64,000 nucleotides of DNA from Eledone cirrhosa (Eukaryota). The DNA lies in the NCBI GenBank assembly GCA_964016885.1, contig OZ024740.1:67456001-67520000 (forward strand), in the 5' to 3' direction. The position numbers were made by a program, and so were the translations under genes. The notes under the pieces were generated by a model that did no database searches, was not told the DNA's origin, and was given only the letters and a program-made list of their open reading frames with translations. The first letter of the stretch is position 1, and the number at the start of each line of letters is the position of its first letter. Of the stretch, positions 47,732-54,114 are shown piece after piece.

Positions 47732-48183
47732 ATGAGACTGTCACTACTCTAAAGCAATAGCATAAGGTCTTCGAAATGCATTTAATTAAGCATACAGTGT
47801 ATTGCAAAATACACTATATATACATTCATATATATATAGCTTTTTCAGATCACCAATTCTAATTTTCAATTCCTGCTTGACCGGCAACCGCTCTGTATAA
47901 TCAGTTCCTGGTTATTTACTAGAATTCTATAAGAATCAAACATCCATGATTCACAGCAAACAGAAGAAGTTGGCTTTGATAGGCATCAATAAATGCGAAA
48001 CAGGGCCCTGTCAGCTTTATCTCCCTTGTTTCCTGAAAATTAAAGCAAATGAGACTGTCACCATTCTAAAACAATAGCATAAGGTCTTCGAAATGCTTTT
48101 AATTAAGCATACAGTGTATTGCAAAATACACTATATATACATTCATATATATATAGCTATTTCAGAGCAGCAATTCTTATTTT
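47732..48183 (+). repeat. Partial tandem repeat (period 317 bp, 135-bp direct repeats) enclosing a hammerhead-like motif
   Basis: 47732-47866 is similar to 48049-48183. Confidence 0.85.
47973..48015 (+). ncRNA. Type I hammerhead-like motif with variant core UUGAUAG
   Basis: GCT-TTGATAG-GCAT caataa ATGC-GAAA-cagggccctg-TC-AGC; palindromic stem III ACAGGGCCCTGT, GUC triplet. Confidence 0.7.
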
Positions 48184-48319
48184 ATATATATATATGTATA
48201 TATATATGTATATATATATGTATATATATATATATATATATATATATATATATATATATATATATATATATATATATATATATATATACATATATATACA
48301 TATATATATATATATATAT

Positions 48320-48456
48320 ATATTTATTAAAATAACAGATTAAAGTTTAAGCAAAGAATCGCTGCTTTCACCCTTAACGGGATCTTCTGAAGATCCCGTT
48401 AAGGGTGAAAGCAGCGATTCTTTGCTTAAACTTTAATCTGTTATTTTAATAAATAT
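48320..48456. repeat. 137-bp palindrome centred at 48388 on a hammerhead core
   Basis: 68-bp arms with a 1-nt centre; right arm reads CTGAAGA-t-CCC gttaa GGG-t-GAAA. Confidence 0.9.
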
Positions 48457-48542
48457 TTGCTCTACGGTTCTTATATATTTGATATATATTTATCCTTATC
48501 GAGCCCTCTTTGGATTTTAGTCTTCAATTTTATTATTAATAC

Positions 48543-49355
48543 TATATATATATATATATATTTATATACATATATATATATATATATATATATATATATA
48601 TATATATGTATATACATATATATGTATATATATATATATGTATATATATATATATGTATATATATATATATGTATATATATATATATATATGTATATATA
48701 TATATGTATATATATATATATGTATATATATATATGTATATATATATATATGTATATATATATATGTATATATATATATATGTATATATATATATATATG
48801 TATATATATATGTGTATATATATATATATGTATATATATATATGTATATATATATATATATATGTATATATATATATATTTATATATATATATGTATATA
48901 TATATATATATATGTATATATATATATACATATATATATACATATATACACACATATATGTATATATATATGAATATATATATACAAAAAAATATATACA
49001 TATATATATATATATATATATACATATATACACACATATATATATATATATACACATATATATATATACATATATATATATACACATATATATATATACA
49101 TATATATATATACACATATATATATATACATATATATATATATTGGAAAATGTGTGTAATCCTTGGTACAGTTAGGTATATTAAGATAGGGGGGAAGAAA
49201 AAATGGCTTCACTTGTGCTTTCAACAAATTTATATATATACATATATGTGTGTATATATGTATATATATATGTATATATATATATAAACATATATATATA
49301 TATATATATATATATATGTATATATATATACATATATATATATATATATATATTA
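48543..49355. repeat. Long (TA)n/(TATG) compound microsatellite
   Basis: Direct reading. Confidence 0.95.
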
Positions 49356-49363
49356 TATGTATA

Positions 49364-49551
49364 GGGCGGTGGATTGGCAGTATCGGTAGAGGGTCGGACG
49401 CCATGCTTTCCAGCATAGTTACGTCCCTTTACCATCTGAGTTCAAATCCCGCCGAGGTTGACTTTGCCTTTCATCCTTACGGGGTCGATAAAATAAAGTA
49501 CCAGTAATGCACTGGTAATTGCTGGCCTTGTGCCTAAAGTAGAAACAATTA
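49364..49551 (+). mobile_element. Full-length tRNA-derived SINE (short variant)
   Basis: A box TGGCAGTATCGG, B box GAGTTCAAATCCC, central 'tttgcctttcatccttacggggtcgataaaataaagtaccag', 3' 'ggccttgtgcctaaagtagaaacaatt'. Confidence 0.92.
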
Positions 49552-49724
49552 TATGTATATATATATACATATATATATATATATTATATGTATATATATA
49601 TACATATATATATATATATATATATATATATATATTTCGCCAGGTGCTATTAAGTTAGACAATACTGGCCGAAACCTATCAAAGTTATCAAAGTTATATA
49701 TATATATATATATATATATATATA

Positions 49725-49808
49725 TAAACGGAAAAAATGAAACGAAATTTCATTTCTCACTCTTCGTAAGAGTAAGAAATGAAATTTCGTTTCATTTTTT
49801 CCGTTTAT
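49725..49808. repeat. ~84-bp near-perfect palindrome
   Basis: 'taaacggaaaaaatgaaacgaaatttcatttctcactctt cgt aagagtaagaaatgaaatttcgtttcattttttccgttta'. Confidence 0.9.
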
Positions 49809-49925
49809 CTTTTTCGGTACCACGGCCGATTAACTCACTCGATATGCAAATTAGGCTGCTTAGCCGTTAATATGCATAAGGAAAGTATAATCTTTCAGAC
49901 GTTCAAGCATCTGGCAGGAAGGTAT

Positions 49926-50888: not shown

Positions 50889-52535
50889 AGTAACGAGTAG
50901 GACCCCGACGGCTGAGACCCGGCTATACCAAAATAGACATACTTTCCGAAACCCGGCCCGGCGTCACGCCACCACACTTTCGGCCCACATCTGGGACCTC
51001 AAAGATAACAATATAACTTATGATCTCACTTGGAGCTTACTGTCCAGAGCCAACTCTTACACGGGAGGACGCCGTCCGTGTAATTTATGCTCGGAGGAAT
51101 ATTACAAATGTTGTTTTCGACGGACCAACTCCTAAACAAGAAAGACGAACTGGTAACTGCATGCAAACACATATTGCGTAGCACTTACCTCGCCCTCAAA
51201 CCCCATAATGACCCGGGGGGGTGTGTGTGTGGGGGGGGGGGGTAGACAAGGGCTGTAAAATCCCGCTTGCCGACTTTTTAATGGGTAACCCCTGCTTGTA
51301 AAGATAGATGTAAGATTTTCTTATATATTTTTTATCGTTTTCTCTATATTTCCTTCTTGCCCAACCCTTCCTAGTCCTCCCACCCCAGTTCTCCTTCTAT
51401 GTCGTCGTCCTTTTCACTTTCTCGTCCACCCCGAGGCAGCCCTTCGGTCCTTTGTAGCCTCAGTACCCCCACCCCCATCCTCTATTCTATGATACAATTG
51501 GCCGACTCGGCTTTTTATAGCAGATGTGATAGATCCCAGATACTTGCTTTCTTATCCGATTGCTGCCCCATTTCCGTGTTTTCTAGATTTCTGAGTGGTA
51601 TCTCTGCTTTAGTTTCTCGTATATCAGTATTTATTTGGGGGGGGGGGGGGGGGGATTCTGAATTAATTTTTCGTATTAAATTTTTCATATATATCTTACG
51701 AGCATTTATGTAGTTTGTATTACAATTTATGTATCGTAGCGGTACGCTTATATATCGTATTAGTATTCATTTTCGGGTTTCTGAATTATTATTTCGTATT
51801 AGTTTCGGTTCTCTGAATTATTATTTCGTAGTAGTTTCTTTAGTATTTTGGCACCCTACTTGTTGACCTGTCACTGTAAGATAGATTTGGACGATTACTA
51901 CTAACTCATGAAATTCTTTCACTTCATCTCGTATTTAGTATTCTGTCCCACCTATTAAATTTGTCTATACTTTAGCAGTACCAGTGAGACTTGAAGATTG
52001 TGGTAAGAGAATGGTAACCAGAAATTGTTTTTCTTTTTCTTTTTTTATATTTTTAACATTCTTATTCTTCTTCTATATATTTACTCCATATTGATTTACT
52101 TATTATTTCGACTTCCTCCCTCTCCCCCTCCCTAGTACACTTCTCTTGACCCCTTATCCTTCGGATTCTGCTGTAGTTGGCACTAACAACGCACGACTGG
52201 GTTCCCTCAACTCCCTCTCCCTCTTTCTTCTACTGGCAAGTTCAGCTACCCCTTCCTTCCACAAAATGACATGATAGAATTATGTGTCTCAACAACAAAC
52301 TTTTGACCAATCCTTGTGACAATCACTTTTACCATATATGGAAATACCCCCTGAGAAGCTCGGCTATTCATGTACCAGGATAAAAATGTTCATTTAGTCA
52401 AGAATTAGCCGTCGAAACGCCTTTAGCCCAGCCGTCTGGGTCCTACTCGTTCCTATTACCCACTCTACTATCCTAAGTATTGAGTACTTTGGTGCGTTAT
52501 GGTCCATCGGGTTCCTTACCACATTTCCTTCGTTA
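50889..52535 (+). mobile_element. 5'-truncated Penelope-like element (GIY-YIG C-terminus plus long 3' region) with a short inverted 5' end
   Basis: 'ETRLYQNRHTFRNPARRHATTLSAHIWDLKDNNITYDLTWSLLSRANSYTGGRRPCNLCSEE' resembles the PLE GIY-YIG C-terminus; 5' 'aacgagtaggaccccgacggctg' is the reverse complement of ~52428-52451; decayed hammerhead at 52346-52441. Confidence 0.82.
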
Positions 52536-52930
52536 TATATACATATATATATATATGTATATATATATATATGTATATATATATATATATATATATATAT
52601 ATATATATATATATATATATATATATATATATATATATACATATATATATATATTTATATATATATATATATATATATATATATATATATATATATATAT
52701 ATATATATATATATATATATATATATATACATATATATATATATTTATATATATATATATATATATATATATATATATATATATATATATATATATATAT
52801 ATATATATATATATATATACAGTATTTTCCGTAGTGTTGTAATATAACTATTACACACAGTAGATGGACAGCTCACGCAGAGATTGCACGACGGTTCCAG
52901 TTGTAGTTCTAAAAGTAATCCGGAGAAAAA

Positions 52931-53051
52931 TTATTCCGATGAAATGACAGTTGATAATAACATTGAAATATTGAATGTCTGCATAACTAATACTTTGTAG
53001 ATAGTAGCTGTTTTCAGGTTATGTAACTGTTATAGAAACACGTGTCAATAA
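52931..53051 (+). ncRNA. Hammerhead-like motif with long stem II and one core substitution (U4 to C)
   Basis: TTATT-CCGATGA-a-ATGACAGTT...AACTGTTAT-a-GAAA-cacgtg-TC-AATAA. Confidence 0.68.
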
Positions 53052-53330
53052 ATTCCTTCTTAACTAAACTGTATCCATTAAAATCCTTCTATATATATAT
53101 ATATATATATATATATATATATATATACATATAACTTATAACTTCATATACATACATATTTTTACATATATATATATATATACATATATATATTAGAAAG
53201 TGAGGTTTTTTTTACAAAATGAAAAATAACCGAGGTATCCTACACGAGTGAAAGTATAAAGAAAAAGAGATGAAATCGAAAATGCAACTGGAGTCTTATT
53301 TTTTTTTTAAATATATATATTTATTTGGTT

Positions 53331-53368
53331 CCTTTACCGGTTTCGCAGTTCTTCTGCTTTTCAAAAGG
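53331..53368 (-). ncRNA. Minimal type I hammerhead with compensatory U3:A8 core
   Basis: Minus strand CCTT-TTGAAAA-GCAG aagaa CTGC-GAAA-ccgg-TA-AAGG. Confidence 0.75.
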
Positions 53369-53707
53369 TGAGTTGAGATGGAGGATCTGTGGTTTTTCTC
53401 ACATCTTGTTGGTCTCTGAATGTTACTTGTTTTATATGGAAAAAGTGGCTCGAAATGCCAGGTTTTTCGAGAAGTAATTTGATTGGTTTGTCAATAATTA
53501 TAATAAATTTCGCGCCAGTTCGCGTTTCAATAGTTCTTCAAATAAGAGGGGGGGGGTTATCACAGGTTGTTTTTTCATATATGAGTGTTTGAATTTCTTA
53601 TATATATATATATCTATATACATATATATATATATATATATATATTTATAATTTGCCTGTTTATATATACATATATATACATATATATATATATATATAT
53701 ATACATA

Positions 53708-53801
53708 GCGGCGATGAATTAGTTTTGCGAGGTTTTTTATATGTGTTCTGTTATTAATTCTGGCAATATTACGCAAATATGACCCTCCCCAAATATAACA
53801 A
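53708..53801. mobile_element. ~90-bp mini-remnant of Penelope family 1 consisting only of both termini
   Basis: 'agttttgcgaggttttttatatg' (left terminus of copies 1 and 2) fused to 'tgttctgttattaattctggcaatatt..gaccctcccc.aa.tataacaa' (right terminus). Confidence 0.82.
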
Positions 53802-54075
53802 TATATATACATATATATATATATATATATATATATATATAAATATATATATATATATAAATATATATATATATATATATATATATATATATATATATAT
53901 ATATATATATATATATATATATATATATATATATATATATATATATATATATATATATATATGTATATATTTATATATATATATATATATATATAAATAT
54001 ATATAAACAAGCAAATTATAAATATATATATATATATATATTGAAAATTGCAAACTTGACTGTCACCACATATTA

Positions 54076-54114
54076 TGAACCTGAAGATTGCGAAAACATG
54101 AAAGTACTTGTTCA
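54076..54114 (+). ncRNA. Minimal type I hammerhead ribozyme with canonical core
   Basis: TGAAC-CTGAAGA-t-TG cgaaaa CA-t-GAAA-gtac-TT-GTTCA; palindromic stem III AGTACT. Confidence 0.75.

What the first reader, a model, noticed from the sequence alone, without database searches (positions are those of the whole stretch)
47973..54114. Dense hammerhead cluster: eight different motifs in ~6 kb of (TA)n-separated islands
Seen: motifs at 47973, 48387, 49926, 50652 (plus its mirror), 52346, 52931, 53331 (-) and 54076, each with different stems. Most have short palindromic stem III sequences (ACTAGT, ATATATAT, ACACGTGT, ACCGGT, AGTACT). More lie at 7707/10652, 12469, 12803 and 56690/59481. Established: Penelope-like elements carry minimal type I hammerheads in their terminal repeats, and palindromic stem III favours dimeric cleavage. 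Inference: the 'unique' islands between TA tracts are ends of many distinct PLE or retrozyme families repeatedly targeting (TA)n, implying a very large unannotated ribozyme repertoire in this genome.
Basis: partly seen in the sequence, partly recalled or inferred. Interest (0 to 1): 0.72.

Follow-up and report, generated by a model that had tools for sequence, protein, structure and literature searches.

The report
Graveyard of Penelope retrotransposon hammerheads
Eight different jumping-gene families left their tail ends in one TA-repeat patch, each with a hammerhead-shaped motif predicted to be a self-cutting RNA; the pairing is known and five of the eight copies here are broken or non-standard, but this animal genome likely holds 200,000 to 400,000 such motifs, and whether they cut is untested.

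Summary
The cluster is real: 7 descriptor hits against 0.07 in shuffles. Each island is the 3' end of a different high-copy family sitting in (TA)n. Four are Hydra-clade Penelope-like elements (PLEs), two are Neptune-like PLEs, and two are non-coding 320- and 428-bp tandem units (retrozyme type). Corrections: the motif at 48387 is a fold-back chimera whose family core is CAGAAGA (U4A; 12,664 copies against 41 canonical), and four other copies have non-standard cores. The locus is the dense tail of a genome-wide load: 91-100 strict motifs in a 1-Mb sample against 0-1 in controls, about 2-4 x 10^5 per genome by extrapolation. All eight families show two fixed 3' ends, one per arm in 95 of 123 head-to-head pairs, which suggests one shared PLE insertion route. 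PLE hammerheads, (TA)n targeting, an octopus Hydra element and the PLE origin of retrozymes are in print. I did not find the scale or the U4A family in the papers searched. Cleavage and expression are untested. This scan noted the same system many times on other DNA of this genome.

The parts
47733..48182 (+). Family A: 1.4 units of a 320-bp non-coding tandem element (retrozyme type)
   Evidence: Maps to the unit at 87%; 28 head-to-tail copies in L106; 1,372 candidates
47976..48012 (+). Hammerhead motif A, U3-A8 core, 12-nt palindromic stem III; this copy has A9G
   Evidence: of the 14 commonest variants printed for 46 A-like copies, only this copy shows G9
48324..48542 (.). Family B: two-armed fold-back of the 3' end of a Hydra-clade PLE, arms meeting at 48385-48391
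   Evidence: 712-aa ORF between tandem ends 3.26 kb apart in L121
48387..48427 (+). Chimeric hammerhead-like motif: canonical-looking core made by the inversion junction, no stem I; family core is U4A
   Evidence: 12,664 exact U4A copies against 41 with U4
49365..49545 (.).
   Evidence: 152 blast hits in the 1-Mb sample
49727..50181 (.). Family C: two-armed insertion of a 428-bp non-coding tandem element (retrozyme type)
   Evidence: 17 tandem copies in L105; 1,295 candidates
49932..49962 (+). Hammerhead motif C; this copy has G8U, the family has a canonical core with U.U at 10.1/11.1
   Evidence: G8U in 2 of 65 copies
50307..50758 (.). Family D: two-armed fold-back of the 3' end of a young Hydra-clade PLE
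   Evidence: uninterrupted 745-750-aa ORFs in L100, L101, L117, L118
50660..50709 (+). Hammerhead motif D, intact core, same as the family majority
   Evidence: 20 of 22 copies identical, the window's own included
50445..50494 (-). Mirror copy of motif D
50892..52541 (+). Family E: 5'-truncated Hydra-clade PLE with the end of the endonuclease frame (50887-51132), 3' UTR and a 25-bp inverted left arm
   Evidence: 3,601 candidates
52351..52436 (+). Hammerhead motif E, C3.A8 subfamily, with further changes in stems I and III
   Evidence: 25 of the first 100 of 4,290 matches are C3.A8, 75 are U3-A8
52924..53089 (+). Family F: 3' end of a Hydra-type PLE with motif F (52936-53046; U4C, long stem II)
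   Evidence: U4C in 5 of 12 copies, canonical in 4, truncated in 3
53194..53598 (-). Family G: 3' end of a Neptune-like PLE with motif G (53364-53335), a clean U3-A8 hammerhead fold
   Evidence: RT and GIY-YIG frames in L108; 14 of 17 copies identical
53742..53808 (.). Short end fragment of the PLE family found at 7517-10880 and 56440-59730
54042..54228 (+). Family H: 3' end of a Neptune-like PLE with motif H (54081-54109; intact core, U.U at 10.1/11.1, weak stem II)
   Evidence: RT and linker frames upstream in L133
48183..54270 (.). (TA)n tracts between the islands, about 24% of the region against a 5% sample mean; inferred target sites
12809..12847 (+). Motif K, another abundant family
   Evidence: 27 homologous copies in the 1-Mb sample
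7517..10880 (.). Decayed two-armed PLE (RT on the minus strand, 709-nt inverted ends); second copy at about 56440-59730, 85-88% alike
   Evidence: hammerhead core and stem II but no adjacent stem I

Best explanation
The region is a TA-microsatellite patch holding the 3' ends of eight unrelated high-copy repeat families (six Penelope-like retrotransposons and two non-coding tandem units), each carrying a hammerhead-shaped motif predicted to self-cleave, and all likely inserted one after another by Penelope-type enzymes. Shown: family identity, copy number, link to RT and GIY-YIG ORFs, 3' ends in (TA)n, two fixed 3' ends with one on each arm. Inferred: the endonuclease nicks (TA)n and the RT primes there; copying usually stops early, so mostly the last 150-450 bp with the hammerhead survives; the second DNA end primes a second copy on the same RNA at a site 22-85 nt away, giving the mirror arms; each insertion leaves (TA)n flanks that stay targets, so families pile up. 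The 320- and 428-bp units likely borrow the same enzymes, probably from cleaved and circularised RNA. In the parent elements the hammerhead likely trims the terminal repeat slowly, as a dimer where stem III is a short palindrome. Most copies at this locus are likely dead relics.
For: Enrichment over shuffles. Every island multi-copy. Hydra motifs RWR, DKT, CxCx5C, CxxC and CxH in the B and D ORFs, which also resemble Hydra-1_Obim by eye. Neptune-type Cx4CxxC linker in G and H, RVT_1 and GIY-YIG Pfam hits. 214 of 235 sampled motifs lie within 300 bp of (TA)6+ against 29% of random positions; family count follows TA content, rho 0.71. TA-flanked 3' ends cluster at two positions in seven families, and the eighth (F) shows its second end in pairs. 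One long and one short end in 95 of 123 unique head-to-head pairs, two alike in 4; in the unbiased sample 31 of 39, none alike. Double changes keep stem III palindromic in A and stem I paired in C. Short stems III form no hairpin alone but self-duplex at -3 to -10 kcal/mol.
Against: No cleavage or expression data. In Xenopus only 1 of 9 predicted retrozyme dimers cleaved (Li et al. preprint), and PLE minimal hammerheads cut poorly in vitro (PMC4209133). Single-strand folding recovers stems I and II for G and for the C family copy but not the full fold for most motifs. The most numerous family counted (B) spread with U4A, U.U at 10.1/11.1 and U17, so cleavage may be dispensable. For A and C only 6 of 14 pairs are long/short, and no clear pLTR parent was found among the seven PLE references held (best hit 51 nt at 76% of C to D). 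Tandem arrays can also grow by unequal crossover.
Confidence: 0.82

Rival explanations
1. The hammerhead shapes in the successful PLE lineages no longer cut; they are passengers, or are kept as a folded RT-binding or promoter signal, so the 'ribozyme repertoire' is largely non-catalytic. This is compatible with the insertion model and differs only on function.
For: Family B amplified to at least 12,664 exact copies with U4A against 41 canonical and has near-intact ORFs. A quarter of the listed E copies share a C3.A8 mismatch and none has C3-G8. Changes in the CUGA turn gave low activity in a mutational scan (PMC9901934 passage). Naiads spread without canonical hammerheads (PMC8557442).
Against: 91-100 motifs per Mb keep a strict core across about two dozen families. 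Stems covary within families. U3-A8, U4C and U10.1.U11.1 are known active or tolerated variants (PMC3088659).
Confidence: 0.3
2. The palindromic islands are miniature DNA transposons (MITE or foldback type) with TA target duplications, and the hammerheads are incidental.
For: Perfect inverted arms flanked by TA at 48324-48542, 49727-49800 and 50307-50758.
Against: Arms are unequal, end at two different fixed sites and have variable junctions. The same sequences are the tandem terminal repeats of RT-endonuclease ORFs.
Confidence: 0.04
3. The cluster is a selected, functional ribozyme array of the host, or a special hotspot unlike the rest of the genome.
For: Eight families in 6.2 kb exceeds the maximum of 6 in 200 sampled sub-windows.
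Against: Five of eight copies are chimeric or non-standard; orientations are mixed; family number rises with TA content (rho 0.71); the family library was seeded with the window's own motifs and the window was chosen after the fact, both of which inflate the contrast.
Confidence: 0.05
4. Chance matches in AT-rich DNA, or assembly artefacts around TA tracts.
For: Relaxed descriptors in 20-34% GC sequence; palindromes beside long microsatellites can be mis-assembled.
Against: 0-1 hits per Mb in shuffled and reversed controls. The same two-armed layout recurs at over 100 separate loci with different junctions.
Confidence: 0.02

Closest known systems
Hydra clade of endonuclease-positive PLEs, including Hydra-1_Obim of Octopus bimaculoides (Craig et al. 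2021, PMC8557442; section 11, passages and supplement files S1-S2 read)
   Same: Single RT plus C-terminal GIY-YIG ORF, DKT and CxCx5C motifs, (TA)n target, sense-strand type I hammerhead near the 3' end, U.U at 10.1/11.1 in many listed members, inverted 5'-truncated copy and one-sided tail.
   Different: Four separate families here, 3.3-3.8 kb in B and D against 'generally under 3 kb'; RWR for RWK; end offsets of 81-85 nt in B, D and E against a 30-40-bp tail; a fixed U4A core in B, absent from the File S2 table.
Minimal type I hammerheads of metazoan PLEs (Cervera and de la Pena 2014, PMC4209133; parts 1-2 of 4 read)
   Same: Short stem I, palindromic 15.2-16.2 region, U3-A8 variant, many families per genome, mostly single motifs from truncated elements, pairs on opposite strands.
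   Different: Reported counts are 2,000-9,000 per genome; the estimate here is 2-4 x 10^5 with a different descriptor. G10.1-C11.1 was in only 20 of 91 strict sample hits.
Metazoan non-LTR retrozymes (Cervera and de la Pena 2020, PMC7229834, passages; Li, Clavereau and Pollet 2026, bioRxiv 10.64898/2026.07.22.740005, parts 1-3 of 5)
   Same: Non-coding 150-450-bp tandem units with one type I hammerhead each; proposed to be PLE-derived and PLE-mobilised; 126,247 motifs in axolotl.
   Different: Units A and C carry the PLE insertion footprint itself (TA-flanked fixed ends, inverted arms), a kind of evidence I did not see in the parts read; circular RNA and cleavage are not shown for A or C; no parent pLTR was identified.
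Neptune clade PLEs (as described in PMC8557442, passages)
   Same: DKG motif, GxAMG motif, Cx2-5CxxC linker before GIY-YIG, microsatellite bias.
   Different: Clade placement of G and H rests on motifs only; no tree was built, and Nematis is not excluded.

Membership tests
Type I hammerhead ribozyme | Core C3-U4-G5-A6-N7-G8-A9, G12-A13-A14, A15.1-U16.1, H17 (or U3-A8) | tested here: met
   Met by window copies D (both), G, H and K, and by family majorities of A, C and E
Type I hammerhead ribozyme | Same core in window copies A, C, E, F and in family B | tested here: not met
   A9G, G8U, C3.A8, U4C; family B is U4A
Type I hammerhead ribozyme | Three stems around the core, stem I open | tested here: met
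   Seven of eight motifs; not the chimera at 48387. Stems II of D and H are weak.
Type I hammerhead ribozyme | Site-specific self-cleavage | not testable with these tools
   No assay; no RNA run listed
Hydra-clade PLE (families B, D) | One ORF with RT and C-terminal GIY-YIG | tested here: met
   712- and 745-750-aa ORFs with YRDD and an IVY...Y[IV]G motif. Pfam and PDB gave no hit, so this rests on motifs and on reading against the published alignment.
Hydra-clade PLE (families B, D) | RWK and DKT motifs, CxCx5C linker, CxxC and CxH around the endonuclease end | tested here: met
   RWR, DKT, CNCRxxxxC, CDLC and CKH in both
Hydra-clade PLE (families E, F) | Same motifs | tested here: inconclusive
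   Only partial frames held: CxCx5C in F; CxxC and CxH in E; 31-54% identity to B or D
Hydra-clade PLE | Insertion in (TA)n; pseudo-LTRs in tandem or inverted | tested here: met
Hydra-clade PLE | Placement in the clade on an RT tree | not tested
   Reference proteins could be read in the supplement but were not available as tool sequences
Neptune-clade PLE (families G, H) | Cx2-5CxxC linker, DKG, RT then GIY-YIG | tested here: met
   Linker in both, DKG in H; RVT_1 E 1e-5 and 3.5e-5, GIY-YIG E 7e-8
Neptune-clade PLE (families G, H) | Tree placement apart from Nematis and Poseidon | not tested
   No tree built
Metazoan non-LTR retrozyme (families A, C) | Non-coding tandem unit of 150-450 bp, one type I hammerhead per unit | tested here: met
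   320 bp x 28 in L106 and 428 bp x 17 in L105, no ORF of 150 aa or more after filtering microsatellite frames
Metazoan non-LTR retrozyme (families A, C) | Expressed as linear and circular RNA; self-cleaves | not testable with these tools
   No RNA holder listed
Naiad PLE | N-terminal endonuclease, no canonical hammerhead | tested here: not met
   Endonuclease is C-terminal in B, D, E, G, H

The most novel reading that the evidence does not exclude
This genome holds the largest hammerhead load yet counted in an animal (2-4 x 10^5 strict motifs, two dozen or more families), and it runs a natural experiment on what PLE hammerheads are for: its most numerous counted family spread with a fixed U4A core, either a new active natural variant or proof that cleavage is dispensable. 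Autonomous PLEs of two clades and non-coding retrozyme units share a two-armed, two-fixed-end footprint, which would mean both ends of a cut (TA)n tract prime reverse transcription of the same RNA and that PLE enzymes mobilise retrozymes.
Probability: 0.45. Interest if true: 0.7.

Novelty: new member of a known kind. Interest (0 to 1): 0.48.

Why it matters
The kind of element is known, so the cluster alone is ordinary. The value is in scale and testability. The estimated count is about twice the 126,247 motifs reported for axolotl, in a genome about a tenth the size (different descriptors, so only roughly comparable). The main text of a 2026 curated octopus repeat annotation does not mention ribozymes, and the giant squid genome paper lists 235 Rfam hammerhead matches. 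Young families with uninterrupted ORFs, matched canonical and non-standard cores, and a shared insertion footprint make three open questions testable: whether PLE hammerheads must cut, how inverted PLE insertions form, and which enzymes move animal retrozymes.

Tried and rejected
Rfam scan of the window: no hammerhead family among the 150 best of 260 matches at E up to 10; 110 weaker rows were not shown; the list is microRNA models on TA repeats. DNA search for island B found nothing, not even itself, because common words are skipped; a pattern search replaced it. Sequencing-run search with a C-family array: no RNA holder listed, no evidence either way; I did not lay reads. Pfam missed the Hydra ORFs and the PDB search found nothing. 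I first took the recurrent U.U at 10.1/11.1 for a novelty; it is in File S2 of PMC8557442 and in PMC3088659. I first guessed Naiad for family E; its endonuclease is C-terminal. The scanner needed a stem II loop of 4 nt and stem II of 3 bp, so it found only 1 strict hit in the region; one search relaxed the loop rules and, with a 2-bp stem II, found 4 against about 0.7 expected. About four singleton clusters of the 28 look like chance hits. Lunse et al. 2017 was not held; what I know of it is recalled from its title. A paper search for hammerhead plus U4A plus cleavage gave 0 papers; hammerhead plus Penelope plus octopus gave 5, with 4 listed and only Craig 2021 and the squid genome relevant; hammerhead plus cephalopod listed 25 of 129, mostly about sharks. 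Supplements of the bioRxiv preprint are closed and those of the octopus repeat paper and the 2014 and 2020 papers were not read; octopus counts or U4A variants could be there. ARAGORN found no tRNA.

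
Full report
Setting. The window lies on the largest contig of a 2,996-Mb animal genome. That it is an octopus-type genome is my inference from size, TA richness, a recalled SINE-like repeat and likeness of its ORFs to Hydra-1_Obim; I did not try to identify the sample. The region 47.9-54.2 kb is about 24% (TA)n against 5% in a genome sample.

Observation. A type I descriptor with a palindromic stem III, at most one core change and two of four stem II pairs gave 7 sites in the region against a mean of 0.07 and a maximum of 1 in 30 local shuffles; the strictest setting gave 1 against 0. 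Copies D (50660-50709 and mirror), G (53364-53335, minus) and H (54081-54109) have intact cores. A has A9G, C has G8U, E has a C3.A8 mismatch and F has U4C. At 48387 the three letters that make the core look canonical are the end of the inverted arm, and stem I is missing.

Families. Searches of the own genome gave 1,372 (A), 1,295 (C), 364 (D), 3,601 (E), 1,171 (F), 1,821 (G) and 171 (H) first-look candidates, of which 40 each were scored, so these are not copy numbers. B has 19,826 exact 31-mers against 0 for the reversed control. B and D are terminal repeats of autonomous elements: a 712-aa ORF between B ends 3.26 kb apart, and 745-750-aa uninterrupted ORFs in 4 of the 7 D regions that I picked for their paired ends or long upstream matches. 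Both carry RWR, DKT, YRDD, CxCx5C, CxxC and CxH, the Hydra signature of Craig et al. 2021 (PMC8557442, section 11). E and F have partial frames of the same type. G and H lie downstream of RT and endonuclease frames with a Cx4CxxC linker, Neptune-like by motif. A and C are different: head-to-tail units of 320 and 428 bp, 28 and 17 in a row, without an ORF, with no clear match to the seven PLE references held.

Window copy against family. A9G was seen only in the window copy among the printed A variants and G8U in 2 of 65 C copies: decay after insertion. Two departures are lineage-wide. B reads CAGAAGA in 12,664 exact copies and CTGAAGA in 41. In E, 25 of the first 100 of 4,290 matches have C3.A8, 75 have U3-A8 and none has C3-G8 (counted by hand; all on one contig). 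Double changes preserve the stem III palindrome of A and stem I of C. These are few events, and copies are related.

Scale. I took 100 evenly spaced 10-kb stretches from the large contigs. A strict-core descriptor found 91 motifs against 0, 0 and 1 in three shuffles and 1 in reversed sequence; 66 of 100 stretches had none and one array gave 15. With relaxed loop rules the count was 100, bootstrap 66-142, or 2.0-4.3 x 10^5 for the genome; homology to a library of these hits and 11 window seeds gave 235 copies per Mb. Small contigs were not sampled. The cluster's 8 families exceed the maximum of 6 in 200 sub-windows of 6.2 kb, but the library favours the window and family number follows TA content (rho 0.71). 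So the locus is the dense tail of a genome-wide state. 214 of 235 copies lie within 300 bp of (TA)6+, against 29% of random non-TA positions.

Insertion footprint. After earlier notes of this scan proposed two fixed ends, I tested it on all loci held. TA-flanked 3' ends cluster at two positions per family, 22 to 85 nt apart. Of 123 unique head-to-head pairs within 6 kb, 95 have one long and one short end, 4 have two alike and 24 have at least one other end; 19 convergent neighbours were also seen. The unbiased sample gave 31 of 39 long/short and none alike. For A and C it is 6 of 14, the rest being tandem read-through or other ends. Four islands of the region (B, C, D, E) are such two-armed insertions. 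An inverted 5'-truncated copy and a one-sided 30-40-bp tail are described for PLEs and ascribed to endonuclease resolution (PMC8557442). Twin priming from both DNA ends is my inference, worded after those notes; an endonuclease-resolution model is not excluded.

Mechanism. Shown: identity, abundance, ORF linkage, TA adjacency, two-end rule. From established knowledge: PLE terminal repeats carry type I hammerheads built for dimers and weakly active in vitro (PMC4209133); Hydra elements target (TA)n. Inferred: target-primed reverse transcription at (TA)n with early truncation, repeated use of the same tracts, mobilisation of A and C in trans, slow cleavage in parent transcripts. Against a simple 'active ribozyme' reading: 1 of 9 predicted Xenopus dimers cleaved, changes in the CUGA turn lower activity, and family B throve with U4A.

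What is known. Hydra-1_Obim with its hammerhead and (TA)n target is published, as are U.U-closed stems II. U3-A8, U4C and U10.1.U11.1 are known natural variants (PMC3088659 passages). Retrozymes as non-autonomous PLE derivatives are argued from co-occurrence and pLTR homology in vertebrates (bioRxiv 10.64898/2026.07.22.740005, parts 1-3 of 5). The highest count I read is 126,247 in axolotl (PMC7229834 passages). The octopus repeat paper (PMC13282606, part 1 of 3 and term search) lists 31 recently active Penelope-like families and has no word on ribozymes in its main text. Searches for an octopus census or a U4A variant found none; supplements not read may hold them. PMC6155905, PMC9901934 and PMC6962438 were seen as passages only.

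Verdict. Observation partly confirmed, interpretation supported. These are new members of known kinds, mostly relics at this locus. The scale, the fixed U4A family and the shared two-end footprint are the parts worth follow-up, and none is backed by RNA data. Interest 0.48.

Noticed in passing
window 22280-42160: At least four to five decayed copies of an APE-endonuclease plus RT non-LTR retrotransposon in a row on the minus strand, 63-92% alike; Tx1-like by recall.
   Followed up: no
window 17118-18511: Frameshifted remnant of another PLE-like RT and endonuclease frame; no Pfam hit.
   Followed up: no
window 10960-11160: Short fold-back related to the 3' end of family E, between TA tracts, without the 5' half of the core.
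   Followed up: no
window 52402-52541 and L101 about 5457-5597: An E-type end (83% alike) abuts the 3' end of a full D element in L101: families stack end to end.
   Followed up: partly
L128:5000-5835: An A-family unit runs directly into the H-family end without a TA spacer, possibly a template switch between a retrozyme unit and a Neptune-like PLE.
   Followed up: no
L180, L192, L224 (unbiased sample): Further tandem hammerhead units with periods of about 467, 527 and 422 bp.
   Followed up: no
1-Mb sample L140-L239: The pair at 10.1/11.1 was U.U in 32, A-U in 23, G-C in 19 (plus 1 after an extra base), C.A in 9, A.A in 3, C.U in 2 and G.U in 2 of 91 strict hits; one array supplies 13 of the U.U.
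   Followed up: partly
window 60127-63604: Fragments of an RTE-like LINE (endonuclease and RT end) by recall; no Pfam hit for the one frame scanned.
   Followed up: no
window 54270-54680 and 47140-47545: Islands with no hit in the 1-Mb sample: possibly low-copy host sequence bounding the cluster.
   Followed up: no
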